Origin: an uncultured Acidobacteriota bacterium
GTDB taxonomy: Bacteria; Acidobacteriota; Thermoanaerobaculia; Multivoradales; SZUA-115
DNA: 64,000 nucleotides
Reading direction: 5' to 3'
NCBI GenBank assembly: GCA_963805975.1
Contig: CAWDVR010000003.1
Coordinates: forward strand, 32,001 to 96,000
Under the pieces are notes generated by a model. It saw nothing but the letters and a program-made list of their open reading frames with translations. It had not been told where the DNA came from and made no database searches. The position numbers were made by a program, and so were the translations under genes. Position 1 is the first letter of the stretch; the number at the start of each line of letters is the position of its first letter. Positions 22,778-39,087 of the stretch are shown here, one piece after another.

Positions 22778-22780
22778 CAG

Positions 22781-23689
<909 letters not shown>

Positions 23690-23738
23690 AATCACCCGGT
23701 TCCGCGCACCACCCCACTGCCTCTCAGGGGAGAAGCGA

Positions 23739-24905
23739 ATGAGTGACCAGACGCCTGCTCCACCGTTCGACTCGACCCTCGGCCGCCTGGCAGCGCAGAA
23801 AGAAGGCACGATCCCCGAGGAGCGTGGCCACGCGCGCGCTCGCCGCGGCGTCGAGCTGGGGCTGCCGGCGGCTGCCTCGGTCACCGACCCGATGATCAGT
23901 TGCTTCTCGCGCGCCGAGCTGCCGCACTTCGCGGGGATCAACACTCTCTTGAAGCTGCCCTATCTCGAAGACGTGCGCCAGGTGGGGAACTACGACATCG
24001 CCTTCCTCGGCATCCCCTTCGACACCGGCACCACCTACCGGCCGGGCACCCGTTTCGGGCCGCAGGGCATGCGCCGGGTGTCGGCGCTCTACACGACGTA
24101 CTTCTACGAGGTGGGCGTGGACCTGGTGGAGTCGGTCGCGATGTGCGACCTGGGGGACGTCTTCGTCATCCCGGCCAACCTCGAGAAGAGCTTCGACCAG
24201 GTGAGCCGCGCCGTGTCGCACGTCTTCTCGAGCGGCTGCTTCCCCTTCCTCATGGGCGGCGACCACTCGCTCGGCTACCCGAACGTGCGCGGCATCGCGC
24301 CGCACATCGACGGCAACATCGGCATCATCCACATCGACCGCCACATCGACCTGCAAGAGAAGGACATGGACGAGCGGATGCACACCACGCCGTGGTTCCA
24401 TGCCACCAACATCCCCAACGCGCCGCCCTCGAACCTGGTGCAGATCGGCATCGGCGGCTGGCAGGTGCCGCGCGCCGGTGTCAAGGAAGCGATGAAGCGC
24501 GGCACCAACATCCTGACCATGGACGACGTCGAGCGGCTCGGCATCGAGAAGACGGCCGAGATCGCGCTCGAGGCGGCGTGGAAGAACGCCAAGGCGGTCT
24601 ACCTCTCCTTCGATATCGACAGCGTGGACTGCGGCTTCGTGCCCGGCACCGGCTGGCCGGAGCCGGGCGGGTTCCTGCCGCGCGAGGTGCTGAAGCTCCT
24701 CAAGCTGGTGGCGCAGGAGGGCATCGTGGCGATGGAGGTGGTGGAGGTGGCGCCGGCCTACGACATCAGCGACATCACCTCGCTGCTCGGCGTGCGCGCC
24801 ATGCTCGATGTGCTGGCGGTGCTGGTGGACAGCGGCCAGCTCCCGAGGAAGGACCGGCTGGCCAACATCCGGCCGGCGGGGATCGACGCCTGGAGCGGCT
24901 ACTGA
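23739..24905 (+). CDS. gdmH: Ni-dependent guanidine hydrolase (ureohydrolase family)
   Basis: FSRAELPHFAGINT, GTTYRPGTRFGPQG, GGDHS, DRHID, ERMHTTPWFHATN, GGWQVPR, SFDIDS, PGTGWPEPGG closely match Synechocystis GdmH as recalled; ABC importer and hypA neighbours. Confidence 0.85.
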   Translation: MSDQTPAPPFDSTLGRLAAQKEGTIPEERGHARARRGVELGLPAAASVTDPMISCFSRAELPHFAGINTLLKLPYLEDVRQVGNYDIAFLGIPFDTGTTYRPGTRFGPQGMRRVSALYTTYFYEVGVDLVESVAMCDLGDVFVIPANLEKSFDQVSRAVSHVFSSGCFPFLMGGDHSLGYPNVRGIAPHIDGNIGIIHIDRHIDLQEKDMDERMHTTPWFHATNIPNAPPSNLVQIGIGGWQVPRAGVKEAMKRGTNILTMDDVERLGIEKTAEIALEAAWKNAKAVYLSFDIDSVDCGFVPGTGWPEPGGFLPREVLKLLKLVAQEGIVAMEVVEVAPAYDISDITSLLGVRAMLDVLAVLVDSGQLPRKDRLANIRPAGIDAWSGY

Positions 24906-24986
24906 GAGACTTGCCGCGCCAGGGCGCTTCCTCCAAGCTGCCGGATTTCCACGGATTTCTGGACCCATTTTCTTGAACTTCGTCCG

Positions 24987-25352
24987 GTGCACGAGCTGTC
25001 GATAGCGCTCGCCGTGGTGGAGACGGTGAGCGAGCGATTGCTCGGCGAAACCCCCGACGGGAAAGGCCCGCCGCGGGTCGAGAGCGTGACGCTCGCCGTG
25101 GGCGCGCTCTCGGGTGTCGATTGCGGCGCGCTGCGCTTCGCCTTTCCCGAGGCCACGGCCGGAACGGCGCTCGCCGGCGCGGCGCTCGAGATCGAGGAGA
25201 TCGGCGTCGTGGCCTTCTGCCCGAGCTGTGAGCAAGAGCAGGCGATCCCCAACGTGCGGCGCCTGCGCTGCCCGGTCTGCCGCACCCCCACGCCGCGCAT
25301 CGTGAGGGGACGAGAGCTCGAGGTCCTGCGGCTGGCGGTGGAGGAAGGGTAA
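24987..25352 (+). CDS. hypA: HypA-family nickel metallochaperone (GhaA-like)
   Basis: MHELSIA N-terminus; CPSC and CPVC; GRELEV. Confidence 0.9.
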   Translation: MHELSIALAVVETVSERLLGETPDGKGPPRVESVTLAVGALSGVDCGALRFAFPEATAGTALAGAALEIEEIGVVAFCPSCEQEQAIPNVRRLRCPVCRTPTPRIVRGRELEVLRLAVEEG

Positions 25353-25370: not shown

Positions 25371-25473
25371 TGGATTCCCGCTTGCGCGGGAATGACGAGT
25401 CACGGCGCTCGCCTGCCGGGCTCTTGGCGTTACCGAACTGGGGCTCCGTCATTCCCGCGCAAGCGGGAATCCA
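25371..25473. repeat. Inverted pair of ATTCCC-N8-GGGAAT (dRS3/REP-like) repeats
   Basis: TGGATTCCCGCTTGCGCGGGAATGACG (25371-25397) and its exact reverse complement (25447-25473). Confidence 0.88.
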
Positions 25474-27118
25474 TCTCTGCCGCCGCCCGCACGTCCTCGT
25501 CCGAGTCGCGGGTGAGGATCTCAAGGATCTCCTCCGAGGTGGCTGGATGTGCTGCCACGGCAGTGCGGATGGTGGCGACGGGGTCTCGGGCGAGCGTGAT
25601 CAGGACGGCGGCGGAGAGGTCCGAGCGCTTCACCACCGCCCAGCGCACGGCGGGTGAGATGTCCTGCGCGAGGGCCGCGAGCACGTCCTCGACGGCCGCT
25701 TCGTGGATGGCCACGGCCGTCCGGGTCTGGGGGTCAGCGTCGCTCGCGAGCAGAGCCAGCAGCGCGGCGGGGCAGGCGGAATGCCGGGCGGCGAGACGGC
25801 GGCCCCAGGGGCCGAGGGCCGCGAGCCGCTCGAGGTCCGACGCAGAGAGGTGGGGATCGGCCGCCGCGGGCTCGTAGCCATCCATCTCCCGCGCGCTGCC
25901 CGCGCTCAGCAACAGTTCCAGCACCGGTCCGGGCAGCCGCGGGTTTCGTGCCGCGGCCTGGCGGACGAGGAGATCGGCGTCGGCTGCCAGCCGGGCGAGG
26001 TCCTCCGTGCTCGTCGCCGGGTGCCGTGCGGCCAACAGCCGCCCCCAGGCGCCGGAGCGCGCGAGCCGGGAGAGCTCGGAGCCGGCTAGGCCGGGGTCCG
26101 GCTCTCCCAGGGTCGAGAGTGTCTCGCTCGCTCCCGCTCGGCGCAGCAGCTCGCGGTGCGCCGCCGGGAAGCTCGGGTGCGCGGCGGCCGCTTCCCGCAC
26201 CCGTCCGGCCCCGTGCTCGGCGAGGCGTGCGAGCAGCTCGGCAGGGGCAGCGGAGTGGCGGGCGATGGCGGAGAGCCTCTCGCTGTCGTCCTCGTCCGCG
26301 GCCAGCAGCAGGAGCGCCGCAGCGGGAGCCCCTGGATTGCCGAGCACGGCCTGCTGTACGGAGAGGTCGTCGTCCTCCGCGAGCCGGAGGAGCGCCGCCG
26401 GGCAGGCGGTGTTGGTGGCCAGTGCGGCGCGAGTGGCCGCATCGACGTCCCTGGCGAGGCGTGTGACCTCTTCCTCCGTGAGGTCCGGCAGGCCGGCCGC
26501 GAGCCGGCGCGCCAACGGCCCGAGGCTCGAGAGCGCGGCTCGTTCGCCAGGGGACAACGATCGGGAAGCGGCTCCGACCGTCACTAGGTCCGGAGCGGCG
26601 CCGGCGGCTAGCAGGAGCGCCAGCGCCGCGGCCGAGACCGGGCTCGAAGGAGCGCGCACCAGCGCCGCCTGGCGTACAGCCACTTCCGCGTCAGCCAGCA
26701 GACCGGCAAGGATCTCGGAAGGCAGAGCCGGGTGGGCCGCGAGGTCGGCGCGCAGGCTGGCGCTGGGGTGCCCCGCCAAGGAAATCAGGGTAGCGGGCGG
26801 CGTCGCCGGATGGCGAGCCGCGAGCCGCTGGCCCCACGCGCCGCCCTCGGCAAGCCGCGCCAGCACCTCCGGCGGCAGCGTGGGGTCGGGCGGCGCGAAG
26901 GAAGAGAGGTCCGCGCTCGACCCCGCGCGCCGCAGCAGGGCCAGCTCCTCGGCAGGGAATTCCGGATCAGCTGCCGCACGGCGCCGCACCCAGAGCTTGT
27001 CGTCGAGGGCGAGGCGAAGGAGCGCATCGACCGGAGCCTCGAGGTCCCGCGCCGCCTCGAGGCACGGCGCTGGCGCCACGCTGGCTGCGAATCGGTAAGG
27101 CTGCTGGCGCTCGCTCAT
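25430..27118 (-). CDS. Leucine-rich-variant/HEAT-like repeat protein
   Basis: Start MSERQQPY at 27118; repeated VRxAAAxHPxxP / LxxLAxD units. Confidence 0.8.
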   Translation of the reverse strand: MSERQQPYRFAASVAPAPCLEAARDLEAPVDALLRLALDDKLWVRRRAAADPEFPAEELALLRRAGSSADLSSFAPPDPTLPPEVLARLAEGGAWGQRLAARHPATPPATLISLAGHPSASLRADLAAHPALPSEILAGLLADAEVAVRQAALVRAPSSPVSAAALALLLAAGAAPDLVTVGAASRSLSPGERAALSSLGPLARRLAAGLPDLTEEEVTRLARDVDAATRAALATNTACPAALLRLAEDDDLSVQQAVLGNPGAPAAALLLLAADEDDSERLSAIARHSAAPAELLARLAEHGAGRVREAAAAHPSFPAAHRELLRRAGASETLSTLGEPDPGLAGSELSRLARSGAWGRLLAARHPATSTEDLARLAADADLLVRQAAARNPRLPGPVLELLLSAGSAREMDGYEPAAADPHLSASDLERLAALGPWGRRLAARHSACPAALLALLASDADPQTRTAVAIHEAAVEDVLAALAQDISPAVRWAVVKRSDLSAAVLITLARDPVATIRTAVAAHPATSEEILEILTRDSDEDVRAAAEMDSRLRGNDGAPVR

Positions 27119-27129
27119 CGCCCGCGAGT

Positions 27130-28206
27130 CTAGCCGGCCGCCCGGATCTCGCAGGGAGCTGGCGACCGAGCTTCGCTCGCTACAGAGCGCCTCACGCCCC
27201 GGCTGAGGAATCGATCGAGGTCCGGGATGAACACCGTGCCGGCTTCGAGCTGGAAGACGCCGCGGACCAGCGAGCGGTCGAGCAGGCGGCCGGTGGCGTT
27301 GACCTGGTTGGGCAGCGGCAGGCTCTCGACCCGCACCTCGGGCCGCACCGGGAAGCCCAGCTTGAGCGGCACGCGCGCGCCGCGGGCCACCAGCAGCCGG
27401 CTCTCGCCCTCGAAGAACGAGGGCCCGGCGCCCATGCGCAGCGAGAGGTCGATCACCGGCACCACCTCGTCGCGGAAGGGAGCCAGCCCCAGCAGGTAGG
27501 GTGGCGCGCCCGGCACCCGCAGCAGCGGCTGCGGGCGCACGATCTCCTGCACCTGGGAGAGCGACAGGCCGAAGAGCACTGGCGCCTCGCCTCCCGGCGA
27601 GGTGGAGAAGAGCAGCAGCCGGCGAGGTCCGGCGGCGGCCGACTGGGGTGCCCCGCTTCCCCGAGATGGGGTTCCGTCGGGCACGGTCCCGGGAGCGGAG
27701 GATTCCGGCACCTCCCAGGGCTCGGCGGGGGAAGCATCTCCTCCGGGGACGAGCCGCTCGGCGGCGAGAACCAGGGCGAGGCGGCCGGAGAGCCGGGCCA
27801 CGGCTTCGAGCGGCGAGCCCGCGGCGCGGGTGACGAGCCGCGGCAGGGCCAGCAGGTTCGCGGCGCCCACCTCCTCGGTGCGCTCGACCCGCTCCACCAT
27901 CAGCCCGAAGGGCCCGCGCCGCCCGTCGAGCAGCACCACGGGGCCGAACCGATCGCGTGCCGGGAGCGGCGAGCCGACGAGCGCTGCCAGCCGGTAGACC
28001 GGGACGCCGCTGCCGTTGTCTCCCGCGCCGCCCGTGCGCAGGCGGCCCGCGAGCATCCCACCGGTGTCGCCCTCCGCCGCGGGCAGCATCCCCTCGCCAC
28101 GCTCGAGCCCGAGGACGCGTGCCATGGGCAGGCAGTAGGTCTCGCCCCCGGCCTGGCAGGCGAGAAGTGCTACCGGCCCGCCGCTCGGCCCGGACGACGG
28201 GCTCAA
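27130..28206 (-). CDS. cheW: Tandem CheW-domain protein
   Basis: TTG start overlapping the CheA stop; two CheW domains (YCLPMARV...FGLMVERV; FGLSLSQVQEIV...VPGAPPYLLGLAPFRDEVVPVIDL). Confidence 0.8.
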   Translation of the reverse strand: MSPSSGPSGGPVALLACQAGGETYCLPMARVLGLERGEGMLPAAEGDTGGMLAGRLRTGGAGDNGSGVPVYRLAALVGSPLPARDRFGPVVLLDGRRGPFGLMVERVERTEEVGAANLLALPRLVTRAAGSPLEAVARLSGRLALVLAAERLVPGGDASPAEPWEVPESSAPGTVPDGTPSRGSGAPQSAAAGPRRLLLFSTSPGGEAPVLFGLSLSQVQEIVRPQPLLRVPGAPPYLLGLAPFRDEVVPVIDLSLRMGAGPSFFEGESRLLVARGARVPLKLGFPVRPEVRVESLPLPNQVNATGRLLDRSLVRGVFQLEAGTVFIPDLDRFLSRGVRRSVASEARSPAPCEIRAAG

Positions 28207-31049
28207 GGCGCCGGCTCTCCGTCGAGCGGCGCCGGTAGATGGGCGCCGGCCCTGGGCGGTACACCGGGCACGGCCGGTGCGGCCACGGCGCGGGCGCCGA
28301 GGCGGCGAAGGATGGCGAGCAGGGCCTCGTCCTGGAAGGGTTTGACCACGTAGTCCGCCACCCCGAGCTCGAAGGCGCGCTGGCGGTGCTTGTCGCCGGC
28401 CCGCGAGGTGAGCATCACGACCGGGATGCCGGCCAGCGCCGGCTGGCCCTTGAGCGTCGCCACCAGCTCGTAGCCGTCCATGCGCGGCATCTCGATGTCG
28501 AGCAGCAGGACGTCCGGCGGCTGGCTCGCGTGCTGGAGGATCTCGAGCGCCTCGACGCCGTCGCGGGCGGTGGTCGGGCGGATGCCCGCGCCGCGCAGCA
28601 GGGCGGAGAGCACCCGGCGCACGGAGAGCGAGTCGTCGACGATCATCACCTCGAGCGCCCGCGCGCCGCGGCGGCGGGGCTGGAGCGCCGCCGCCCGGCT
28701 GCGGGCGGCGACCCGCACGGCATCGCGGGCCTTGCGCTCCACCAGCTCGGCGGGGGCGAGGATCAGCACCACGCTGCCGTCGCCCATGAGCGTGGCGCCG
28801 GTCAGGCCGGGCACGCGCTTGAGGTGCGGGCCCAGGCCCTTGACCACCACCTCGCGGGCCTCGAGCAGGGTCTCGACCACCAGCGCGTACTTGCGGCCAC
28901 CGAGCCGGACCACGAGCACCGGCAAATGCACGTCGCCGGCCGCCACGGCCGGGGCGTCCGTCCCACCCAGGGCCTCGGCGAGATGGATCACGGGCAGCAC
29001 CTCGTCGCCGGCCCGCAGCACGGGCTCCTGGCCCACGCTCTCGAGGTCGCGGCGGTCGGCGCGGAGGATCTGCGTCACCACGGCGAGCGGCACGGCATAG
29101 CGCCGGCCGCCGGCCGCCACCATCAGCACCTTGAGGATCGCCAGGCTGACCGGCAGGCGGATCGAGACCCGGGTGCCTGCGCCGGGCGTGGACTGGAGGG
29201 CGACCGAGCCTTTCATCCGCTCGACCGTGGTCTTGACCACGTCGAGGCCGACGCCGCGGCCGGAGACCTCGCTGACCTCGCCGGCGGTCGAGAAGCCGGG
29301 CAGGAAGAGGAGCTCGCTCACCTCGTCGGGGCCGAGGCCCGCGGCTTCCTGCGGTCCGACGTAGCCCTGGGCCACCGCCGCCTCGCGGATCGAGTCGGTA
29401 TCGAGCCCGGCGCCGTCGTCCTCGACGGTCAGCACCACCTCGGTGCCCTCGTGGGTGGCGGCGAGCCGCAACCGCCCGCGCTCCGGCTTGCCTGCGGCGC
29501 GGCGCAGCGCCGGCGGCTCGAGGCCGTGATCGACGGCATTCCGCATCAGGTGGAGCAGCGGGTCGGCGATCTCTTCGAGCACCGTCTTGTCGAGTTCGAC
29601 GTGGCTGCCTTCGATGAGCAGCTCGGCCGACTTGCCCTGCTGCTGCGCGGTCACGCGCACGGCACGTTCGAGGCGGGCGGCGAGGGTGCCCAGGGGCACC
29701 ATGCGCAGGCGCAGGAGGCCGTCCTGCACCTCGCTGGTCAGGCGCGAGAGGCGGGCCAGATAGCCGTCGAAGTCGCCGATGGTGCCGGTGAGCTCGCCGG
29801 AGAGGGCGGCGATGTCGCTGCCGGTCTCCCCCAGCTCGCGGGTGATCAGGTGGAGCTCGGTGTAGCGGTCGAGCTCCAGCTCGTCGAAGCCGGTGGTTCC
29901 CTTGCCGTTCGTGCCCTGGTGCGCCGCGTCGTAGCGGGCACCGCCGGCCGCGGCGCCCAGGGCGCGGAAGCCGCCGCCCCATGGCTTCCCGCCACCTAGG
30001 GCCGCGGCCTCGTAGCCGGTCTCGAGCCGCCCCGAGATGCGGCGCAGCCGCGCCACCGAGAGGTCGAGCTCGCCCACCTCGCGAGTCAAGGTGCCGAAGT
30101 GCTGCTCGAAGGTCGAGCGGTTCACCACCAGCTCGGAGACCAGGCGCACCAGCTCTTCGAGGCGGTCCCAGGGAACGCGCAGCGGAGCAACGCGCAGGGG
30201 AGCGGTCCGCGCCGCGGGAGCCGCCGTGCCGTTCGAGCGCGTCTCCTCCGAAAGCTCCCTGTAGCTCGGCGGCTCTGGCAGCGGGCGCTCGGTGGCCTCG
30301 TCGCCCAGCCGCTCGCGATAGCGCCGGTAGATCCCGCCGGTGGCCGCCGACTCGAGGTCGCCGCCGGTCGCCACCAGGTCGGAGAGCTCGTCGGCCGTCG
30401 CGTAGAGCAGGCCGAGGTCGGCTGGGGAGACCGGTGTGTCGGCCTCGACCAGCAGATCGAGCAGGTCTTCCATGCGGTGCGCCAGCCGGGAGACGGCGCC
30501 AAAGCCCACCAGCGCCGCGGTGCCTTTGAGCGTGTGGACGCTCCGGCGGATCTCGGCCAGCGGCGGCCGGAGCGCGGGCGCGGCCGCGAGCGCGGCAAGC
30601 GCCGTGGCCACCACCGACAGGTGGTCCTGGGCCTCGTCGAGGAAGGACTCGGCGAGCTCCGGCGAGACCTCCGCCAGCGACAGGCCGAGGGCGGGCCCGG
30701 GAGCGAGCTCGGGGGCTGGCCGGCGCTCGCTGACGACGCCGTCGAGATAGCTCTCGATCTCGGCGACGGCGGCGAGGAGCGCGGCCTCGAGCTCGCGGCC
30801 TGGCGCCAGAGCGCCGCTCCCCAGGGCCTCGAGCTGCGCCTCGAGCCGGCCGGCCATACCGCCCAGGGCGGGCAGCCCCACCATCGAGGCGGCGCCCTTG
30901 ATGCTGTGCGCCAGGCGGTGCGCCTCGGCGACGGATTTACCGCTCGCTGGGGCGCCGCGCGCCGCTTCGATGCCGGCGGTGATCGCCGGCAGGTAGCTCT
31001 TCGCCTCTTCGACGAAGCCGGCCAGGAGCTCCGGATCGATCTCGTGCAT
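28203..31049 (-). CDS. cheA: Hybrid CheA-REC kinase (ChpA-like) with two Hpt domains
   Basis: AHSIKGAA and VHTLKGTA Hpt sites; LLHLMRNAVDHG, GFST...SGRGVGLDVV; CheW and C-terminal receiver domains. Confidence 0.95.
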   Translation of the reverse strand: MHEIDPELLAGFVEEAKSYLPAITAGIEAARGAPASGKSVAEAHRLAHSIKGAASMVGLPALGGMAGRLEAQLEALGSGALAPGRELEAALLAAVAEIESYLDGVVSERRPAPELAPGPALGLSLAEVSPELAESFLDEAQDHLSVVATALAALAAAPALRPPLAEIRRSVHTLKGTAALVGFGAVSRLAHRMEDLLDLLVEADTPVSPADLGLLYATADELSDLVATGGDLESAATGGIYRRYRERLGDEATERPLPEPPSYRELSEETRSNGTAAPAARTAPLRVAPLRVPWDRLEELVRLVSELVVNRSTFEQHFGTLTREVGELDLSVARLRRISGRLETGYEAAALGGGKPWGGGFRALGAAAGGARYDAAHQGTNGKGTTGFDELELDRYTELHLITRELGETGSDIAALSGELTGTIGDFDGYLARLSRLTSEVQDGLLRLRMVPLGTLAARLERAVRVTAQQQGKSAELLIEGSHVELDKTVLEEIADPLLHLMRNAVDHGLEPPALRRAAGKPERGRLRLAATHEGTEVVLTVEDDGAGLDTDSIREAAVAQGYVGPQEAAGLGPDEVSELLFLPGFSTAGEVSEVSGRGVGLDVVKTTVERMKGSVALQSTPGAGTRVSIRLPVSLAILKVLMVAAGGRRYAVPLAVVTQILRADRRDLESVGQEPVLRAGDEVLPVIHLAEALGGTDAPAVAAGDVHLPVLVVRLGGRKYALVVETLLEAREVVVKGLGPHLKRVPGLTGATLMGDGSVVLILAPAELVERKARDAVRVAARSRAAALQPRRRGARALEVMIVDDSLSVRRVLSALLRGAGIRPTTARDGVEALEILQHASQPPDVLLLDIEMPRMDGYELVATLKGQPALAGIPVVMLTSRAGDKHRQRAFELGVADYVVKPFQDEALLAILRRLGARAVAAPAVPGVPPRAGAHLPAPLDGEPAP

Positions 31050-31058
31050 GCCGCCCTC

Positions 31059-32978
31059 CTATGCCGCGCGTTCCGGCAGCCGCAGCCGGTCGGCCAGCGA
31101 GCGCTCCGGCAGGCGGAAGCGGTCCATGGACTCGCGCAGGTCGTCGGCGAGCCCGGCCAGGTTGCGGATCGAGACCGCGGCCTGCTTGGTGCCGGCGGCG
31201 GTGCGCTGGGTGCCCTGGGAGATGTCGTTCATCGCCCGCGCCACACCCTCGGAGCCGCGCGCCTGCTGCTTGGCGGCGAGCGAGATCGACTGGATGATCT
31301 CCGCCAGCCGGTTGGACACGCTCTGGATTGCGCCCAGCGCCTGGCCGGCCTCGTTGGCGAGCGAGGAGCCGCCCACCACCTCGCGCGTGGTCGCCTCCAT
31401 GGCGGCCACCGCCTCGGTGGTCTCGCTCTGGATCGACTTGATCAGCGTGCCGATGCGCTTGGTGGCCTCGGCCGAGCGCTCGGCCAGCCGCTCCACTTCC
31501 TCGGCCACCACTGCGAAGCCGCGGCCGGCCTCGCCGGCCATGGCCGCCTGGATCGAGGCGTTCAAGGCCAGGATGCTGGTGCGGTCGGCGATGTCGCCGA
31601 TCAACTGTACGATCTCGCCGACCTCCTGCGAGCTCTCGCCCAGCCGCTTGATGCGCTTGGCGGTCTCCTGCACCTGCTGGCGGATCGAGCTCATACCTTC
31701 GATGGTCTTCGACACCGCCTCGGCGCCCTGCTTGGCGGTGGCGAGCGCCTGGTCGGCCACGCTCGCGGCCTGCACCGAGCTCTCCGACACCTGGGCCACG
31801 GAGACGGCGAGCTCGTCGACCGCCGCCGAGGTGCCGGCGAGCTCGGAGGACTGCCGCTCGCTGCCCTCGGCCAGGTGCTGGGCGGTGGACTGGATCTGGT
31901 TGGCGGCCGAGCTCACCTGGAACGTGGTGTCGCGGGCGGTGGAGATGATGCGCCGCAGCTCGGAGATCATCAGGTTGAAGGAGTCGGCGATGGCGCCGGT
32001 CACGTCGGCCGTCACCTCGGCCTCGCGGGTGAGGTCGCCGTCGGCGACGCCCGACACCTCGTCGAGCAGCTTCACGATCGAGCCCTGGATGCTGTCGCGC
32101 TCCTCGCGCGACTGGATCAGCGACAGGGTGTTGTCGAGCATGGCGTTGAGCGAGCGCGAGGTGACGCCCAGCTCGTCTCTGCCCAGCACCTCGGCGCGGG
32201 CCCCGAAGTCGCCGATGCCGATGCGGGTGAAGGTCTGGCTGATCGAGTTCACCTGCCGCAGCACCAGGCGGGCGAGGTAGAAGGCCGCGGCCAGCGCCAG
32301 GATGGTGAGCAGGATGCCGGTGATGCCGATGTTGCGGCGCACGGCGGCGAGCACCGTCTCGGTGGAGGCGAAGGCGCTCTGGGCGCTGGTGTTCGAGAGG
32401 TCGGCGAACTTCTTGTTGACCGCCACCAGGTCGGCGAACCCGCGCTCGATCTCGCTGCTGCGGTCGGCGAGATCGGCGCGGCCGATCACCTGGCCGGCGA
32501 GCAGCCGCTGGCGCAGCGGCGCGAGCTGGGCATAGGCGCCGTCGATGCGATCGAGGTAGGTCTGCTCGTCCTTCTGCAGGCTCGACTGGCCGAGGCGCGC
32601 CAGGGCGGCGGTGAACTCGGGGCTCACCGTCGTCTTCCATTCCGTCTTGTACTTCTCGTGCAGCTTGACCATGCCCTCTTCCTCGCGCCGCACCAGGGCC
32701 TCGAGCGTGCCCCGCTCGCTCGCCGAGAGGTCGGCCCGGGTGAGCTGGTCGAGCGCGCCGGTCAGCTTCTCGCGGTGCAGGTTGGCCTCGTCGAGGTCCA
32801 TGATCGGCAGCAGCATGAACCCGTAGAGGTTGTCGAACTCGTACTTGAGGACGTCGATGCCGTCGCGCTTGATGGCGCCGGCGCCGGTGAGCGCCACGCC
32901 GGCGATCAGGATCACGGCGAGCGGCGTGAGCACGGCGATCAGGGTGAACTTGCCAAAGAGCTTCAGGTTGCGAAACAC
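31059..32978 (-). CDS. Methyl-accepting chemotaxis protein, PilJ-like
   Basis: Two TM segments, periplasmic helical sensor, HAMP domains, ILALNASIQAAMAGEAGRGFAVVAEEV. Confidence 0.93.
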   Translation of the reverse strand: MFRNLKLFGKFTLIAVLTPLAVILIAGVALTGAGAIKRDGIDVLKYEFDNLYGFMLLPIMDLDEANLHREKLTGALDQLTRADLSASERGTLEALVRREEEGMVKLHEKYKTEWKTTVSPEFTAALARLGQSSLQKDEQTYLDRIDGAYAQLAPLRQRLLAGQVIGRADLADRSSEIERGFADLVAVNKKFADLSNTSAQSAFASTETVLAAVRRNIGITGILLTILALAAAFYLARLVLRQVNSISQTFTRIGIGDFGARAEVLGRDELGVTSRSLNAMLDNTLSLIQSREERDSIQGSIVKLLDEVSGVADGDLTREAEVTADVTGAIADSFNLMISELRRIISTARDTTFQVSSAANQIQSTAQHLAEGSERQSSELAGTSAAVDELAVSVAQVSESSVQAASVADQALATAKQGAEAVSKTIEGMSSIRQQVQETAKRIKRLGESSQEVGEIVQLIGDIADRTSILALNASIQAAMAGEAGRGFAVVAEEVERLAERSAEATKRIGTLIKSIQSETTEAVAAMEATTREVVGGSSLANEAGQALGAIQSVSNRLAEIIQSISLAAKQQARGSEGVARAMNDISQGTQRTAAGTKQAAVSIRNLAGLADDLRESMDRFRLPERSLADRLRLPERAA

Positions 32979-33069
32979 GGACGTCTCCTTTCAGGCGAAG
33001 GAACGAGGACGATGGTGGCGCCGCGGCCCGGCGGCTGCACGACGCACGAGCTGCCGGCGCAAGCCCGCA

Positions 33070-33696
33070 TCACGCGGCCTCCACGGCGCCCAGCGCATCA
33101 GCGGCCAGCAGGCGCGCGACGTCGAGCACGGCGACCACTTCGCCGCCCTGCTCGACGACGCCGGTGAGATAGATCGACGCGGGGTCGTCCAGCAGCGCCG
33201 CGGCGCGCACCACGCGCGAAGCCGCGAAGCTCGCCAGGCCCGCCACCTGGTCCACCACCAGGCCGGTGTAGGGCTCGGGGCCCGCGCCGCGCACCACCAG
33301 CAGGCGCCCCATGGCGGGGCCCTCGGCGGCGGCGCCCAGGAAGAGGGCGAGGTCGACCACCGACAGGATCTCGCCGCGCAGATTGATGACGCCGAGCACC
33401 CAGGGCGGCAGGTGGGGTACCGGAGTGACGGGCGGCACCGACCCGACCTCGATCACGGCGCCGATCGGCACCGCGTAGCGGGCGCGGCCGAGCGAGAACA
33501 CGATGTAGCGCTCGAGGGCGGGCTCTTCCGGCGCCGGCGGCGGCCATCCGCCCGCGTCGGCCCCCGCGTCGATTCCTGGGCCGGCGCCGCGGGCCTTGCC
33601 GGGCTCCGCCACGGGGTGGCTCGCCACCTCGGCGTCGAGCGCGCCCAGGAGATCGGCCAGCGCGTCGGCCGAAGAGCCGTGATCGTCGTCGTTCAT
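33070..33696 (-). CDS. cheW: CheW coupling protein
   Basis: VTPVPHLPPWVLGVINLRGEILSVVDL; GGAGGGAG RBS before ATG 33696. Confidence 0.9.
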   Translation of the reverse strand: MNDDDHGSSADALADLLGALDAEVASHPVAEPGKARGAGPGIDAGADAGGWPPPAPEEPALERYIVFSLGRARYAVPIGAVIEVGSVPPVTPVPHLPPWVLGVINLRGEILSVVDLALFLGAAAEGPAMGRLLVVRGAGPEPYTGLVVDQVAGLASFAASRVVRAAALLDDPASIYLTGVVEQGGEVVAVLDVARLLAADALGAVEAA

Positions 33697-33724
33697 CGGG
33701 TGTCTCCCTCCTCCGGCCTCGCGG

Positions 33725-34090
33725 CTACAGGTAGCGGGCCGCGGCGGCGCGCAGCTCGTCATCCGAGAACGGCTTCGTCAGGTACTCGTCGGCACCCTGC
33801 TTCAGGCCCCAGAAGCGGTCGCTGTCCTGTGTCTTGCTGGTGACCAGCACGATCTTGATGTCCTGGGTGTCGGGAGCGGTCTTCAACTGGCGGCAGACCT
33901 GGAAGCCGTTTTTCTTCGGCAGCACCACGTCCAGGAAGATCAGGTCCGGCCGCCCGCTGGCCGCTTTCTCGAGCGCTTCCTCGCCATCGGCGGCGGTCAG
34001 CAGGCGGTAGCCGCGGGGGGCGAGCGCCTGGGTCATGAGCTTCAGGTCGGTCGGGCTGTCGTCGACTAAGAGGATGGTCTGGCCGGGCAT
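33725..34090 (-). CDS. Single-domain response regulator, PilH-like
   Basis: LLVDDS, FLDVVLP, VTSKTQDSDRFWGLKQGADEYLTKP. Confidence 0.9.
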   Translation of the reverse strand: MPGQTILLVDDSPTDLKLMTQALAPRGYRLLTAADGEEALEKAASGRPDLIFLDVVLPKKNGFQVCRQLKTAPDTQDIKIVLVTSKTQDSDRFWGLKQGADEYLTKPFSDDELRAAAARYL

Positions 34091-34111
34091 CGAGCTCTCC
34101 TTCAGAATCCT

Positions 34112-35002
34112 TCAGAAAGGGATGCGGTCGATCGTGAGCGCCAGGTCGCGGAGGAAGACGCCGTAGCTCTCCCGCCACTCGCCCGCGGCGGTGGCCGACC
34201 GCAGCCGGCGGCCGGAGAGGTCGAGGAAGGTCTCGAAGACCAGGCCCATGGCGCGGGCGATCTCCTGGAAGGAGCGGCTGCGCTCGGCCTCGTCGGTGGC
34301 CCACAGGCGATAGAAGCTGGCGGCGTTGGCCGTGGAGAGCCGGTTGGCCTGGGCGGTCAGCACGCGGGCCATCGGGTGCTTGCCGACGGCGCTCTGGAGC
34401 ACCGGCGCCAGGGCGGCGCTCGAAGCCTCGTCCCCCCGGCCCCCGGCGCTCTCGGTGAAGGCGACCGCCTGGTTGATCATGTCGGCCAGCATCTCGAGGG
34501 CGACGAGCGGCCGCTTCCTCCCCTTTTCCGCCAGCCGCGACATGCCCTGCTCGAGCCGCGACAGCAGGAGCATCAGCTCGCCTTCGAGCGCCTCGTCGCT
34601 CTGCTGCTCCGGCCAGGCGAGCTCGTCGTTGGCGATCGGCAGGGTCGGCCCGAGGTCGGCGGCCATCAGCCAGGCGCTCTCCGCGCGGTCGCGCACGCTC
34701 TCGTCCATCTGGCGGGCCGCTTCGAGGAGCAGGTGGCGCCAGCCGGTGCGGATGCTGTGCGCCGGCGAGCGCACGCGGTCGGTGATGTGGAACGTGCCGT
34801 CCTGCCAGGTGAGGAGCTGGAACGCCGCCTCCTCGCCCTGGAGCGGGCCCAGGAGGGCGTGGACGATCTCACCCTCTTGCAGGTAGAGGACACCTTCCTC
34901 GCCGCGGCGCCGCACCACCAGGCCCACCGAGCGCCGTTCCGTACAGAGGAGTTGCACGACGCTCGAGATCTCGAAGTCCTTGATGTCGCCCTCAACCGCC
35001 AT
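34112..35002 (-). CDS. DUF4388 (PATAN-like) domain protein
   Basis: MAVEGDIKDFEISSVVQLL...GVLYLQEGEIVHA...GEEAAFQLLTWQDGTF...LLLEAARQMDE. Confidence 0.85.
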   Translation of the reverse strand: MAVEGDIKDFEISSVVQLLCTERRSVGLVVRRRGEEGVLYLQEGEIVHALLGPLQGEEAAFQLLTWQDGTFHITDRVRSPAHSIRTGWRHLLLEAARQMDESVRDRAESAWLMAADLGPTLPIANDELAWPEQQSDEALEGELMLLLSRLEQGMSRLAEKGRKRPLVALEMLADMINQAVAFTESAGGRGDEASSAALAPVLQSAVGKHPMARVLTAQANRLSTANAASFYRLWATDEAERSRSFQEIARAMGLVFETFLDLSGRRLRSATAAGEWRESYGVFLRDLALTIDRIPF

Positions 35003-36023
35003 GCGCTTCTCGCGGGCAGTGCTGCTCCACCGCTTTCACCAGATGGGCAGGGTCGAAGGGCTTGGTGATGTAGTCGGTGGCGCCGGCCAGGCGGCCGCGC
35101 ACCTTGTCGAAGAAGCCGTCCCGGCCCGAGAGCATCACCACCGGCACGCCGCGGGTCGCGGCGTTGGCGCGCACCAGCTTGCAGAGCTGGTAGCCGTCCA
35201 TGTGCGGCATCGAGACGTCGAGCAGGATCAGGTCCGGCACCGCGTCGTCGAGCTTGGCGAGAGCCTGGAGCGCGTTGCCGGCCACCAGCACCTCGTGGCC
35301 CTGGCGCTCGAGGGCGACGCCGACGATCTTGAGCACCGTCGGGCTGTCGTCCACCACCAGGATGGTGCGTCGCGGCTGGCCTGGAGCGGCCGGCCGGCGC
35401 AGGTAGGCGGCGGCGCGGACGGCCGCCTCCTGGCGGCGGGCGAGCTCCTCGATCGCCGCCGAGAGCCTGCCGTCCTCGGGCTTGAGCTGGCGTGCCACCC
35501 GCAGCCGGGTCAGGCCTTCGTAGGTCCGCCGCAGGTTGAGATAGCCGAGGGCGATCGCCAGGTGCACCTCGAAGGTGACGGCGTCGCCGGAGAGCCCCTC
35601 CAGCCGTTCGAGGGCGCCCTTCAGGATGTCGCCGTCCGCCTCGGTGTTGGCGAGCAGGGAGTCGAGGTCGTCGAGCCGCACCACCGCCCGGCACTGCGGG
35701 CACTTCGCGACCTCGACCAGCGACTCGCCGTGACAGAACGGGCAGCGCCAGTGCTTACGTTTCTGGGCGCTGCCGGCCCGCACCCGCTCGAGCCAGCTCC
35801 GGGTGCGCTCGTCGGCCGGGTTGACGGCCAGCGCCTTCTCGAGAAAGGAAACTGTCTCGCCGCGGTGCGTCGCCACCGAGGCGAGCCACAGCCAGGCCAG
35901 CTCTTCGTTCGGTGCCAGCTCGGCCGCCGCCAGCAGCTTCTCTCTCGCCGTCGCCTTGTCCCCCTGCTTGGCGGCGGCGATCCCCGTCTTGAGCAGATCC
36001 CGTTGTCGATTCACAGCCAGCAT
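34992..36023 (-). CDS. PilG-like response regulator with N-terminal TPR and Zn-ribbon
   Basis: TPR (NEELAWLWLA), CPFC..CPQC, receiver with MLSGRDGFFDKVRGRLAGATDYITKPF. Confidence 0.88.
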   Translation of the reverse strand: MLAVNRQRDLLKTGIAAAKQGDKATAREKLLAAAELAPNEELAWLWLASVATHRGETVSFLEKALAVNPADERTRSWLERVRAGSAQKRKHWRCPFCHGESLVEVAKCPQCRAVVRLDDLDSLLANTEADGDILKGALERLEGLSGDAVTFEVHLAIALGYLNLRRTYEGLTRLRVARQLKPEDGRLSAAIEELARRQEAAVRAAAYLRRPAAPGQPRRTILVVDDSPTVLKIVGVALERQGHEVLVAGNALQALAKLDDAVPDLILLDVSMPHMDGYQLCKLVRANAATRGVPVVMLSGRDGFFDKVRGRLAGATDYITKPFDPAHLVKAVEQHCPREAHGG

Positions 36024-36051
36024 GCTCGCGCCTCTCTCTCAGTGTCCCGGC

Positions 36052-36207
36052 TCAGGTGCGGACGAACTTGTCGATCCCTTCCTCGCGCCACACCCGCAGG
36101 GTCATCTGGTCCTTGGGGTCGATGGGCACGCCGATGGCGTTGACCGGTACGTTGTGGTTCCTCTGGATCTCGATCCAGGTGCGCTTGATGGCGGGGTCCA
36201 ATGGCAT
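36052..36207 (-). CDS. Unannotated 51-aa protein
   Basis: MPLDPAIKRTWIEIQRNHNVPVNAIGVPIDPKDQMTLRVWREEGIDKFVRT; GAGGGA RBS; strongly G/C-ending codons; fills the gap between the M16 and PilG-like genes. Confidence 0.8.
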   Translation of the reverse strand: MPLDPAIKRTWIEIQRNHNVPVNAIGVPIDPKDQMTLRVWREEGIDKFVRT

Positions 36208-36225
36208 GGTGATCCCTCGGGAGAT

Positions 36226-37527
36226 TTAGGAGACAGCTTCGAGCCGGGCATCGGCCAGAAGGTCGTGGAACGAGCCGGCGCCGGCGTCCAGGCGGCCTTC
36301 GTCGGCCACCACGGCGAGCGCCGCGCGCTCGAGGCTCGGGGCGAGCCAGGTTTCGGCCAGCTCTACCAGGTGCCGGCGCCGGACCTGGGAGAGGGCGGTC
36401 ACCACCTCCTCGTCCGGCAGCGGCCGGCCGAAGTAGAGCTCCTGGGTGGCGAGGCGGCTCATGCGGGTCGCCGAGCTCTCGGCGGCGATCAGGTGCTGGT
36501 TGGTGAGCGCGGTGACCGCGCGCGCCAGCTCTTCGTCGTCGACCGGCTCGTCGCCGCTCGCCAGCCGGGCGAGCTCGGCGGCGACCAGCCGCAGCACCGC
36601 CGGCAGGTTCTCCGGCGTGGTCGAGCCCTCGAGCAGCAGGACGCCACCCTGGGCGTAGGCCTGGTAGGAGCTGCCGATGGCGTAGACCAGCCCGCGCTCC
36701 TCGCGCACGCGCCGGAAGAGGCGCGAGCTGATGCCGCCGCCCAGCAGGCGGTCGAGCACGTGCAGGCGGTAGCGCTCGGGGGCGGTGAAGGCGAAGGCCG
36801 GCAGGGCGAGCGCGAAGTAGGCCTGCGAGATCGGCGCGTGGTGAACCACCGTGCCGCCGCGATGCGGGGCCGGCTGCGGGCGGCGCGGCGCGCTCTCGCC
36901 CAGGAGGCGCCAGAACGCGTCCCGGCTCTGGGCCACGAAGTCGGCGTGGTCGAGGTGGCCGGCGGCGGCGATCAGGGTACGGGCCGGGGTGTAATGGCGG
37001 GCCGCGAAGTAGATGGCGTCCTCGCGCGTCAGGCCGCGCACCGTCTCCGGCGAGCCGGCGATCGGCCGGCCCATCGGGTGCCCGCTCCAGGCGAGCTGCT
37101 TGACCAGATCCTCGGCGAAGTGCGGGGGCGAGTCGCGGCGCGCCTCGAGCTCGCAGGCGATGGTCTCCTTCTGCCGCTCGACGGCCGTCTCCGGAAAGGT
37201 GGAGCTCAGGAGCACGTCACCCAGGAGGTCGAGCGCGTGGTAGCGGTAGTCGTCGAGCACGTGGGCCGTCAGGCAGGTGTAGTCGCGGGTGACGAAGCCG
37301 CCGACCTGGCCCCCGGCACCGTCCATCAGCCGCGCGATCGCCAGCGCATCCCGGCTCGCCGTGCCCTGGAAGAGCAGGTGCTCGACCAGGTGGGCGATGC
37401 CGGAGGTGCCGCTCTCCTCGTCGGCCGGGCCGGCGTCGACCAGGACGCCGATCGAGATGGACCGCGAGCGTGGCATGGCCTCGGTGATCACCCGGATGCC
37501 GTTGTCGAGGACCGTTTTCTCGATCAA
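36226..37527 (-). CDS. M16B (pitrilysin/processing-peptidase-like) zinc metallopeptidase, cytoplasmic
   Basis: GIAHLVEHLLFQGT (HxxEH), glycine-rich LGGGISSRLF...REERGLVYAI; no signal peptide. Confidence 0.92.
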   Translation of the reverse strand: MIEKTVLDNGIRVITEAMPRSRSISIGVLVDAGPADEESGTSGIAHLVEHLLFQGTASRDALAIARLMDGAGGQVGGFVTRDYTCLTAHVLDDYRYHALDLLGDVLLSSTFPETAVERQKETIACELEARRDSPPHFAEDLVKQLAWSGHPMGRPIAGSPETVRGLTREDAIYFAARHYTPARTLIAAAGHLDHADFVAQSRDAFWRLLGESAPRRPQPAPHRGGTVVHHAPISQAYFALALPAFAFTAPERYRLHVLDRLLGGGISSRLFRRVREERGLVYAIGSSYQAYAQGGVLLLEGSTTPENLPAVLRLVAAELARLASGDEPVDDEELARAVTALTNQHLIAAESSATRMSRLATQELYFGRPLPDEEVVTALSQVRRRHLVELAETWLAPSLERAALAVVADEGRLDAGAGSFHDLLADARLEAVS

Positions 37528-37573
37528 GAGTCAAACTCCCGCTGTCGCGAGCAGTTGGCGTCGATCAAGACAC

Positions 37574-37596
37574 TCTAGTATGTTAAAAATACTAGA
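37574..37596. promoter_or_regulatory. AT-rich palindrome in the predicted leader of the M16/chemosensory operon
   Basis: TCTAGTAT-N7-ATACTAGA. Confidence 0.45.
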
Positions 37597-37652
37597 AATG
37601 TCGTGATACGAGCCGGTGCACTTCAGGCGTAGCTAGAAACAAGGCAAGACTC

Positions 37653-37668
37653 AGCAAGAGGCATACCA
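37653..37668 (-). promoter_or_regulatory. Putative sigma54 promoter for the M16/chemosensory operon
   Basis: Minus strand reads TGGTATGCCTCTTGCT (GG-N10-GC, TTGCT). Confidence 0.65.
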
Positions 37669-37782: not shown

Positions 37783-39087
37783 TTGAGCCGAAGGAAACTT
37801 CTCTCGACTGCTGCGATCTGTGGGTTGGGGATCGGCCTGCTGGCGGCCCGGCGGCGCAACGCGCAGCTCGCACGCGAGAACCTCGCCCTGGAGAAGCGCC
37901 AGCGGGAAACCGACGAGGAAGTGCGGCTCCGGCAGGCGATCAGCAATGCGGCGCGCGAGTGGCAGCTCACCTTCGACGCCGTCGAGTCCGTGCTGCTGGT
38001 GATGGACGGCGAGGGTCGTGTGCGGCGCATGAACCGTGCCGCGAGCCTTCTCGCCGGCCGGCCCTACCGCGAGCTCCTCGGCCTCGAGGTGGGGGCGATC
38101 GGCGCCGGCGAGCCGTGGGCGACGGCCGCCGCCCTGGCGGCGGAGGTGGCGCAGGACCGGGCCTCGCGCACGCTTTCCGCCGTCGACCCGGCCGCCGGCA
38201 CCACGTGGGATTTGTCAGCTACGGTCTCTGGGTCGGCCACCGTTTCGGGGTCTGCCACGGTCTCGGGATCGGGTACGCGGGCTTCGGGTGCAGGGCACGG
38301 GGGGGCCGACCTGGACCACGTGATCCTGGTGGCGCGCGACGTCACCGGCCTGGTGCGCCTCCAGGAGTCGCTGCACAAGAGCGAGGTGATGTCGGCCATG
38401 GGCTCACTGGTGGCCGGTGTGGCCCACGAGGTCCGCAATCCCCTGTTCGGCATCTCGGCGGCGCTCGACGCTTTCGAGAGCCGCTTCGGCGACCGCGAGG
38501 ACTACGGCCGCTATCTCTACGTGCTGCGCAGCCAGCTCACCCGCCTCAACCGGCTGATGACCCAGCTCCTCGACTACGGCAAGCCGCCGCGGCTCGAGGT
38601 CGGCGCCGAGAGCCTCGCCGAGGTGCTGGCGGAGGCGATCGTCAACTGCTCGTCGCTCGCCGGCCAGCAACAGGTGGAGATCCAGCCGCGGCTCGCCGCC
38701 GATCTGCCGCCGGTGCCGATGGACCGCCAGCGCATGCTGCAGGTGCTCCAGAACCTGCTCGAGAACGCTATCCAGCACAGCCCGGCGCCCGGCGTGGTGG
38801 AGGTGGAAGGTGGGGTCGAGAACGGGACGGAGGCTCCCGCCCTGGTGTTCGCCATCCGCGACTCCGGCCCCGGCTTTCGGCCGGAAGACCTGCCCAAGGT
38901 CTTCGATCCCTTCTTCACCCGCCGCCGGGACGGGACCGGTCTCGGGCTCTCGATCGTCCATCGCATCGTCGAGCAGCACGGCGGAGCGATCCGGGCCGGC
39001 AACCGCGACGGCGGCGGCGGCGAGCTGCTGCTGCGCCTGCCGCTCGCCGAGCCTGGCACACCGGCCCTGCCGGCGAGCGGGCGATGA
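37783..39087 (+). CDS. PAS-domain sensor histidine kinase (NtrB-like)
   Basis: AGGAGG RBS; VAHEVRNPL H-box, NLLENAIQH, DSGPG, FDPFFT, GTGLGL. Confidence 0.93.
   Translation: MSRRKLLSTAAICGLGIGLLAARRRNAQLARENLALEKRQRETDEEVRLRQAISNAAREWQLTFDAVESVLLVMDGEGRVRRMNRAASLLAGRPYRELLGLEVGAIGAGEPWATAAALAAEVAQDRASRTLSAVDPAAGTTWDLSATVSGSATVSGSATVSGSGTRASGAGHGGADLDHVILVARDVTGLVRLQESLHKSEVMSAMGSLVAGVAHEVRNPLFGISAALDAFESRFGDREDYGRYLYVLRSQLTRLNRLMTQLLDYGKPPRLEVGAESLAEVLAEAIVNCSSLAGQQQVEIQPRLAADLPPVPMDRQRMLQVLQNLLENAIQHSPAPGVVEVEGGVENGTEAPALVFAIRDSGPGFRPEDLPKVFDPFFTRRRDGTGLGLSIVHRIVEQHGGAIRAGNRDGGGGELLLRLPLAEPGTPALPASGR

What the first reader, a model, noticed from the sequence alone, without database searches (positions are those of the whole stretch)
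25430..37668. Chemosensory operon headed by an M16 protease and a micro-protein: candidate proteolysis-coupled Pil/Chp-like pathway
Seen: ten same-strand genes, with overlaps or gaps of at most about 90 bp, behind one sigma54-type promoter. Order: M16 peptidase (HxxEH intact, cytoplasmic), 51-aa ORF, TPR/Zn-ribbon PilG-like, DUF4388, PilH-like, CheW, PilJ-like MCP, two-Hpt CheA-REC, CheW-CheW, helical-repeat protein. There is no CheR, CheB or CheD. Known: the MCP tip (LNASIQAAMAGEAG) and the PilG/PilH signatures mark the type IV pilus class of chemosensory systems, which I do not know to include a processing peptidase. Inference: the peptidase and the small protein are dedicated components, for example a protease/substrate or protease/adaptor pair providing adaptation or turnover in place of methylation.
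Basis: partly seen in the sequence, partly recalled or inferred. Interest (0 to 1): 0.8.

Follow-up and report, generated by a model that had tools for sequence, protein, structure and literature searches.

The report
Pilus-steering operon with peptidase–miniprotein module
A chemotaxis-like operon of the kind that likely steers pilus-based movement starts with a zinc peptidase of its own lineage and an unnamed 51-residue protein, a pair kept in such operons in several bacterial phyla; the small protein is likely a regulator of the pathway and the peptidase likely degrades it, a link not found in the papers searched.

Summary
Observation confirmed: ten same-strand genes (largest gap 91 bp) behind a sigma54-type motif; the genome has no CheR, CheB or FliG match and five PilT-family genes. 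The refuting test fails: this M16 belongs to one clade (72 sequences, apart from 39 other M16B) that sits in Tfp-type chemosensory clusters of Acidobacteriota, Chloroflexota, Desulfobacterota and Planctomycetota, directly before the 51-aa gene in 59 of 81 loci and through two gene orders. Zinc ligands are invariant (61 of 61). The 51-aa protein is a real, conserved family, predicted to fold, with no Pfam or PDB match. The link is one-sided: in 602 sampled genomes all 4 with the peptidase carry the small gene, but 3 more carry the small gene in the cluster without it. 'In place of methylation' is not supported: CheR sits beside the pair in 14 loci, CheR and CheB together in several, and related clusters lack both systems. 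Best reading: the mini-protein is a pathway accessory that the peptidase likely degrades (0.45). Binding and cleavage are untested; the complex predictor was unavailable. This scan noted the same module twice before in other genomes.

The parts
37654..37668 (-). sigma54-type -24/-12 motif (TGG-N9-TGC), 141 bp upstream of the M16 start
   Evidence: 40 matches genome-wide; kept in L003; RpoN present; function inferred
36226..37527 (-). M16B zinc peptidase of a chemosensory-linked clade; H46, E49, H50, E126 and R275/Y282 intact; cytoplasmic
   Evidence: 3HDI: TM 0.90, rmsd 1.6 A
36052..36207 (-). 51-aa conserved mini-protein (invariant W11, Q15, PVNAIG 21-26, D33, T36, W40, D46); predicted three-helix fold; no family assigned
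34992..36023 (-). PilG/PatA-position response regulator: TPR-like N-terminus, two CxxC motifs, C-terminal REC
34112..35002 (-). DUF4388 protein
33725..34090 (-). single-domain REC (PilH/PixH position)
33070..33696 (-). CheW (PilI position)
31059..32978 (-). two-TM chemoreceptor (PilJ position), signalling region of 40H-like length; only MCP hit in the genome
28203..31049 (-). CheA: two Hpt, long dimerisation segment, HATPase, CheW, C-terminal REC, no P2 hit
27130..28206 (-). tandem CheW-CheW protein (ChpC position); start codon uncertain
25430..27118 (-). LRV (leucine-rich repeat variant) helical-repeat protein; local add-on, seen only in the same-genus locus

Best explanation
This is a chemosensory operon of the Pil-Chp/Tax type, likely steering type IV pili, that carries a two-gene accessory module: a 51-residue mini-protein that likely acts on the signalling pathway, and a dedicated M16B peptidase that likely captures and degrades that mini-protein and so sets its level. 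Shown: gene content, intact catalytic residues, one peptidase clade tied to these clusters, conservation of the small gene, and its survival after clean loss of the peptidase. Inferred: the receptor-CheW-CheA core phosphorylates the two REC proteins, which bias pilus activity (from Pil-Chp and Tax1); the peptidase works as a BHP-like homodimeric chamber; the mini-protein is the only product of the cluster small enough for such a chamber; its own target (a REC protein, the kinase, the receptor or the pilus motor) is not identified. The module is optional and independent of methylation.
For: Linkage: M16 directly upstream of the small gene in 59 of 81 loci, 54 of 74 with at least 2 kb upstream; core che genes in 62 of 69 loci with at least 3 kb downstream. 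The pair stays together while moving from the head of the cluster (Acidobacteriota, Chloroflexota) to between CheA/CheW-CheW and PilH/MCP (Desulfobacterota). Reverse search: in 301 genomes of the window's phylum only G000 and G089 have the clade peptidase (484 bits, 56%; next best 285 bits, 38%) and only these two have the small gene; in metagenomes 6 of 7 clade members have small gene plus che genes, the seventh is cut by its contig end, and 0 of 73 other M16 loci have the small gene. One clade, SH-like support 100. Activity likely: H46, E49, H50, E126, R275 in 61 of 61, Y282 in 60 of 61; closest solved structure is the homodimeric BHP. Twenty residues are fixed in the clade and rare in the outgroup, which fits a changed specificity. 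Chambers of such enzymes limit substrate size (BHP about 10,000 cubic A; PreP up to 65, IDE under 80 residues; PMC12731061 section 4); the next smallest product here has 121 residues. Asymmetry: no genome examined had the clade peptidase without a small gene, whereas 3 of 5 small-gene genomes in a second 301-genome sample have it in the che cluster with no clade peptidase, two with the peptidase missing from its usual slot (L245, L247; also L057). The small gene is tandemly doubled or tripled in 7 of 81 loci and in some genomes stands apart behind a PAS-sigma54 activator (L026, L041, L042, L077), as a separately dosed factor would. One record fuses it to a PilH-like REC (P0211).
Against: No binding or cleavage evidence: no complex was predicted and no RNA data were found. 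The small protein is predicted to be compactly folded (pLDDT 93.9) and is more conserved than the peptidase (mean identity 0.69 vs 0.50), which fits a stable binding partner at least as well as a substrate. Sequence co-divergence is weak and unspecific: small vs M16 given MCP, partial rho 0.27 (permutation p 0.019, kin not independent), but 51-column windows of PilH also track M16 slightly better than MCP. One same-family genome (G319, 95% complete) has the small gene with no CheW, no clade M16 and no related MCP, so it is not strictly a chemosensory part. In three genomes the peptidase stays in the cluster with no small gene beside it (G301, G308, G314). Most related clusters lack both genes (10 of 10 fetched from genomes without the module). 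Fusions are single records and mixed (REC, periplasmic-binding receptor, Smr, FHA). The size argument is not strict: FusC degrades ferredoxin and MPP trims large proteins.
Confidence: 0.45

Rival explanations
1. The 51-aa protein is a stable, uncleaved partner of the peptidase (inhibitor, activator or adaptor) that also docks on the chemosensory complex; the peptidase's substrate is something else, such as an unstructured tail of CheW, CheA or the PilG-like protein.
For: Confident compact fold and very high conservation of the small protein; strict adjacency in 59 of 81 loci; clade-specific residues also in the C-terminal part of the first domain (D203, W206 in 72 of 72), which could form a docking surface (not mapped on a structure here); several CheW proteins have long N-terminal extensions (L045).
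Against: The small gene persists intact in clusters whose genomes gave no clade peptidase, so it is not only a peptidase subunit; the R/Y pair marks a closed-chamber enzyme, whereas MPP, which trims large proteins, lacks it (PMC12731061 section 3).
Confidence: 0.25
2. Both genes serve the pilus-control pathway but separately: the small protein binds a signalling or motor component, and the peptidase clears or generates other short peptides (for example released prepilin leader peptides or imported signal peptides).
For: Peptidase kept in the cluster with the small gene elsewhere (G301, G308, G314); small gene kept without the peptidase; M16 presequence peptidases clear released leader peptides; five PilT-family genes in the genome.
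Against: The two genes move as one block between two gene orders, and no genome examined had the clade peptidase without a small gene; receptor sensor domains differ among these clusters (for example dCache in L065), which argues against one shared peptide signal.
Confidence: 0.17
3. The pair replaces CheR/CheB methylation as the adaptation system.
For: This genome has no CheR or CheB match and its MCP has no match to the methylation consensus.
Against: All four combinations occur: pair with CheR (14 loci) and CheB (4, plus G089), pair without, no pair with CheR/CheB (L220, L227, L228, L230), no pair and no CheR/CheB (L221-L226). The consensus motif is as rare with CheR (mean 0.36 per MCP, n 14) as without (0.31, n 35), so it does not discriminate.
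Confidence: 0.05
4. Hitch-hiking: peptidase and small gene form an unrelated unit that was captured once in an ancestral cluster and is being lost.
For: Frequent loss of the peptidase; solo small genes in 7 of 81 loci; one genome with the small gene and no CheW; rarity (4 of 602 genomes with the peptidase).
Against: Retention inside the cluster across four phyla at about 50% peptidase identity, through reordering and an inversion (L028); all 7 small genes in the two 301-genome samples lie in che clusters; no clade peptidase with enough flanking DNA was found away from che genes.
Confidence: 0.06
5. RiPP-like system: the 51-aa protein is a precursor and the M16 its maturase, as PqqA/PqqF or subtilosin/AlbEF.
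For: Small gene next to an M16; M16 enzymes do process such precursors.
Against: No modifying enzyme or exporter recurs in the 81 loci; the protein is conserved over its whole length and predicted folded, with no leader/core split; the PqqF model scores 32.7 against a cut-off of 320.
Confidence: 0.03

Closest known systems
Pseudomonas aeruginosa Pil-Chp (pilG pilH pilI pilJ pilK chpA chpB chpC)
   Same: Two REC proteins, CheW, one MCP, multi-Hpt CheA with C-terminal REC, further CheW; components as listed in PMC12632253 (passages); CheR and CheB, where present in relatives, sit after the MCP and after CheA, the PilK and ChpB positions (gene order recalled).
   Different: Only two Hpt domains; PilG-position protein has TPR-like and CxxC parts; separate DUF4388 protein; no CheR/CheB in this genome; peptidase and mini-protein absent from Pil-Chp as reviewed (the word 'protease' does not occur in that review).
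Cyanobacterial Tax1/Pix and Tax3/Pil systems (PixG PatA-type, PixH, CheW, PixJ, PixL, CheW)
   Same: Same component set, no methylation enzymes (PMC11181946); long CheA dimerisation segment as reported for Tfp CheAs of Chloroflexota and Cyanobacteria (PMC10542144); DUF4388 is discussed with PATAN regulators (search listing; relation otherwise recalled).
   Different: DUF4388 is a separate protein here, not fused to the REC; the receptor is a two-TM periplasmic sensor, not a photoreceptor; no peptidase or mini-protein described.
Bacillus halodurans BHP (PDB 3HDI), homodimeric M16B peptidase, and its housekeeping relatives
   Same: Best sequence and fold match (E 1.4e-59; TM 0.90, rmsd 1.6 A); HxxEH, distal Glu and R/Y pair on one chain.
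   Different: Separate clade at 30-40% identity with 20 clade-fixed and 9 lost positions; fixed genomic link to che genes; the window's genome gave no housekeeping-type hit near that score (next M16 hits under 30% identity over full length).
M16 enzymes with a dedicated small substrate: PqqF/PqqA, AlbF-AlbE/subtilosin precursor, FusC/ferredoxin
   Same: An M16 committed to one small polypeptide (PMC12731061 sections 4 and 9).
   Different: Those serve biosynthesis or nutrient uptake; here the context is signalling, with no modifying enzymes or transporter.

Membership tests
Tfp-class chemosensory system | CheA with several Hpt domains, C-terminal REC, no P2 | tested here: met
   two Hpt with His (48, 172), REC 801-914, no P2 hit; typical of Tfp but also of ACF
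Tfp-class chemosensory system | Two CheY-like regulators ahead of CheW-MCP-CheA | tested here: met
   34992-36023 and 33725-34090; feature as stated in PMC11181946
Tfp-class chemosensory system | 40H-class receptor | tested here: inconclusive
   by length only: 319 residues match 319 positions of the CtpM model, and 328 match 301 of the PRK15041 model, about four heptads more; class labels of those receptors are recalled; no class HMM run
Tfp-class chemosensory system | Placement of CheA in the Tfp class by the Wuichet-Zhulin class models | not testable with these tools
   class HMMs not available; the paper could not be fetched
Tfp-class chemosensory system | Host has type IV pili as likely output | tested here: met
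   five PilT-family genes over cut-off; no FliG match; other pilus genes not searched
Tfp-class chemosensory system | Controls pilus motility | not testable with these tools
   needs mutants
M16B homodimeric peptidase (BHP type) | HxxEH plus distal Glu | tested here: met
   H46, E49, H50, E126 in 61 of 61
M16B homodimeric peptidase (BHP type) | R/Y pair on the same chain; two-domain chain of about 420 residues; no partner M16 gene alongside | tested here: met
   R275 61 of 61, Y282 60 of 61; fold match to 3HDI; no second M16 gene recurs beside it (one locus, L073, has an extra fragment)
M16B homodimeric peptidase (BHP type) | Homodimer formation and peptidase activity | not tested
   no complex model obtained; needs assay
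RiPP precursor + M16 maturase (PqqA/PqqF, SboA/AlbEF) | Recurrent modifying enzymes or exporter in the neighbourhood | tested here: not met
   recurring families in 81 loci are che genes, CheR, CheB, ParA-like and local neighbours
Known small-protein or chemotaxis accessory family (for the 51-aa protein) | Sequence or fold match to a described family | tested here: inconclusive
   no Pfam or NCBIfam hit; no PDB sequence hit under E 0.029; Foldseek none, best VIA Z 2.5; Atlas best 0.79; short models match poorly, so absence proves little

The most novel reading that the evidence does not exclude
A previously undescribed layer of control in pilus-type chemosensory systems: a new 51-residue mini-protein family tunes the phosphorelay or the pilus motor, and a dedicated M16B chamber protease destroys it, giving ATP-independent regulated proteolysis as a timer or gain control, conserved across four or more phyla.
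Probability: 0.4. Interest if true: 0.85.

Novelty: new variant of a known kind. Interest (0 to 1): 0.66.

Why it matters
Chemosensory systems are among the best catalogued signalling pathways, so two unrecognised, conserved accessory genes are a real gap; the 51-codon gene is short enough to be missed by gene callers. Physiological substrates of bacterial M16 peptidases are poorly defined (PMC12731061 section 9); here the genome context names a candidate substrate and a pathway, which makes the question directly testable. Cultured carriers exist (Desulfobulbus, Desulfoluna, Desulfonema magnum), and natural gene-loss variants give ready comparisons.

Tried and rejected
Fold and sequence searches for the mini-protein gave nothing clear. 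Methylation-motif counts do not separate clusters with and without CheR. Mirror-tree test: weak and not specific. A shared sigma54 promoter is not general: 3 of 56 M16 upstream regions and 1 of 81 small-gene upstream regions match the strict pattern; a looser pattern found it before 3 of 9 solo or head copies. The IQ-TREE run did not finish; the tree cited is FastTree with SH-like support only, built from hits spanning at least 330 residues, leaving out metagenome hits under 200 bits. Wuichet and Zhulin 2010 could not be fetched with the id I recalled; its auxiliary-gene tables, and supplements of all papers, were not seen and could mention these genes. Literature searches for a peptidase M16 linked to chemosensory clusters listed nothing on it; most subscription papers are not covered. 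Rejected: methylation replacement, RiPP reading, and the LRV gene as a core part.
Full report
Observation. The ten genes, their order and spacing are as described. The sigma54-type motif at 37668-37654 is rare in the genome (40 matches) and is kept in the same-genus locus L003; RpoN is present, and a histidine kinase plus sigma54 activator pair is transcribed divergently at 37783-40442, a plausible but untested activator. This is the only MCP and the only full CheA found in the genome. CheR, CheB and FliG have no match, PilT-family genes have five (genome 96% complete). The nearest named relative is a Thermoanaerobaculia (Acidobacteriota) genome at 71-95% identity over most genes, which one search places in the same genus.

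Class of the system. Two REC proteins, CheW, MCP, a two-Hpt CheA with C-terminal REC and no P2, and further CheW domains match the Pil-Chp and cyanobacterial Tax systems as described in passages of PMC12632253, PMC11181946 and PMC10542144. The formal class assignment could not be run; multi-Hpt CheA-REC also occurs in the ACF class. I treat it as Tfp-type, with pilus control inferred.

The 51-aa gene is real. It has 139 homologous clusters, none with a name or Pfam domain, 13 invariant positions in 59 aligned sequences, fixed length, ribosome-binding words and third-position-biased divergence. A profile search of 1.84 billion representatives returned 87 hits, mostly stand-alone proteins of 50-70 residues; about a dozen of the weakest match only short stretches and are likely chance, one being a WD40 protein. 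The model is confident (pLDDT 93.9; helices 5-16, 34-42, 45-48) and has no clear structural match.

Neighbourhoods, starting from the small gene. A scan of GTDB genomes gave 198 matches, of which the best 80 were returned, so this set leans to close relatives; with L002 that makes 81 loci. The M16 ortholog (41-56% identity, 83% in L003) lies in 61, directly upstream on the same strand in 59 (in L028 it is inverted, in L073 a PilG-like gene lies between; L080 has a cut-off M16 that was not counted). Core che genes lie in 65 of 81, and in 62 of 69 with at least 3 kb downstream. All 8 M16 loci without core che genes end within 1.9 kb of the small gene, and one of them (G089) proved to hold the full cluster. 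Carriers of the pair include Acidobacteriota, Chloroflexota, Desulfobacterota and Planctomycetota; a record labelled Verrucomicrobiia has the small gene without the peptidase; two records labelled Clostridia group with Acidobacteriota sequences in the tree and may be mislabelled. Two gene orders occur, with the pair at the head or between CheA/CheW-CheW and PilH/MCP.

Neighbourhoods, starting from the peptidase. In 301 genomes of the window's phylum only G000 and G089 carry a close ortholog (484 bits; the next best is 285 bits at 38%) and only these two carry the small gene (one search used a single sequence and may miss divergent copies). In 301 genomes of the phylum of G301, 2 carry the clade peptidase, both with the small gene. 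A FastTree of 111 sequences separates the 72 cluster-type M16s from 39 others with SH-like support 100.

The peptidase looks active and specialised. H46, E49, H50, E126 and R275 are invariant in 61 sequences and Y282 in 60. Sequence and fold are closest to the homodimeric BHP, 3HDI. Twenty positions are fixed in the clade and rare outside, nine the reverse. According to sections 3, 4 and 9 of PMC12731061 the R/Y pair is shared by nearly all M16 enzymes except MPP and the bc1 core proteins, chamber volume limits substrate size, and physiological substrates of prokaryotic M16s are poorly defined.

Methylation. The pair is not a substitute. CheR lies in the same cluster in 14 of 61 M16 loci and CheB in 4, an undercount because loci stop at 10 kb (L050 dropped as a separate opposite-strand cluster); G089 has M16, small gene, CheR and CheB in one run. 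Of ten related clusters fetched from genomes without the module, four have CheR and CheB and six have neither. The methylation motif does not sort the clusters.

Asymmetry. The small gene can do without the peptidase. Of ten genomes checked whose small-gene locus lacked M16, two had the clade enzyme elsewhere (G301, G314) and eight gave none (completeness not given, some are small assemblies). Three of five small-gene genomes in the second sample have it inside the cluster with no clade peptidase, one on a 2.8-Mb contig, and two same-order relatives show the same within the 16-20 kb fetched (L240, L241). Seven of 81 loci hold a solo copy; of five such genomes checked, three have the clade peptidase in a che cluster elsewhere. 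G319 has the small gene and no CheW. The reverse case, clade peptidase with no small gene in the genome, was not met, although in G301, G308 and G314 the two are not adjacent. This pattern fits a mini-protein with its own job and a peptidase whose job depends on it.

Mechanism. Most likely the mini-protein is an accessory regulator of the pathway and the peptidase degrades it (0.45). A stable-partner role (0.25) and separate roles (0.17) remain open; methylation replacement (0.05), hitch-hiking (0.06) and a RiPP (0.03) are unlikely. No direct evidence of contact was obtained: no complex model, weak and unspecific co-divergence, and single, mixed fusion records, one to a PilH-like REC.

Novelty. 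Seven searches of the held literature for this link listed no description; I saw search listings for these and passages or sections of five papers, no supplements. Two earlier notes of this scan report the same module in other genomes; my reading was recorded before I saw them, and they are not independent support. Verdict: a new variant of a known kind of system, with a new mini-protein family and a dedicated peptidase clade; interest 0.66.

Noticed in passing
window 25371-25473: A perfect 27-bp inverted repeat with 49 nt between the arms, REP-like, between the convergent hypA-like gene and the LRV gene; one arm encodes the LRV protein's last residues. It could act as a two-way terminator. 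Only these two copies in the window.
   Followed up: partly
window 37783-40442 (+): Divergent PAS-like histidine kinase and NtrC-type sigma54 activator facing the sigma54 motif of the operon; a similar kinase lies near the cluster in L003 and L034.
   Followed up: partly
L026, L041, L042, L077: The small gene follows a PAS-PAS-sigma54 activator gene in Desulfobacterota, with a sigma54-like motif in L026 and L077, also in L040.
   Followed up: partly
L005-L009, L012, L013, L017, L038, L063, L069, L116, L117: A ParA-like ATPase between PilH and CheW in Chloroflexota versions of the cluster.
   Followed up: no
P0136, P0179, P0188, P0210, P0211: The mini-domain fused to Smr, FHA, a protein that looks like a lytic transglycosylase by eye (no Pfam hit), a membrane periplasmic-binding receptor, and a PilH-like REC; mostly single records.
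   Followed up: partly
P0135, P0140, P0151, P0170, P0183: Divergent members carry a C-terminal tail ending in a YRG motif, reminiscent of DUF4278 (recalled; no Pfam hit).
   Followed up: no
L028:8140-9420: In one Blastocatellia genome the M16 gene is inverted, divergent from the small gene, yet stays beside it; relatives have about 500 bp between the two genes, so a promoter may lie there.
   Followed up: no
window 21689-25352: ABC-type permease and ATPase, an agmatinase/arginase-like ORF and a HypA-family gene (HypA, the rest by reading), convergent on the operon: probably a nickel-dependent guanidine or agmatine utilisation unit.
   Followed up: no
L016, L053: Records labelled 'uncultured Clostridia' whose M16 groups closely with Acidobacteriota sequences; possible mislabelled bins.
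   Followed up: no
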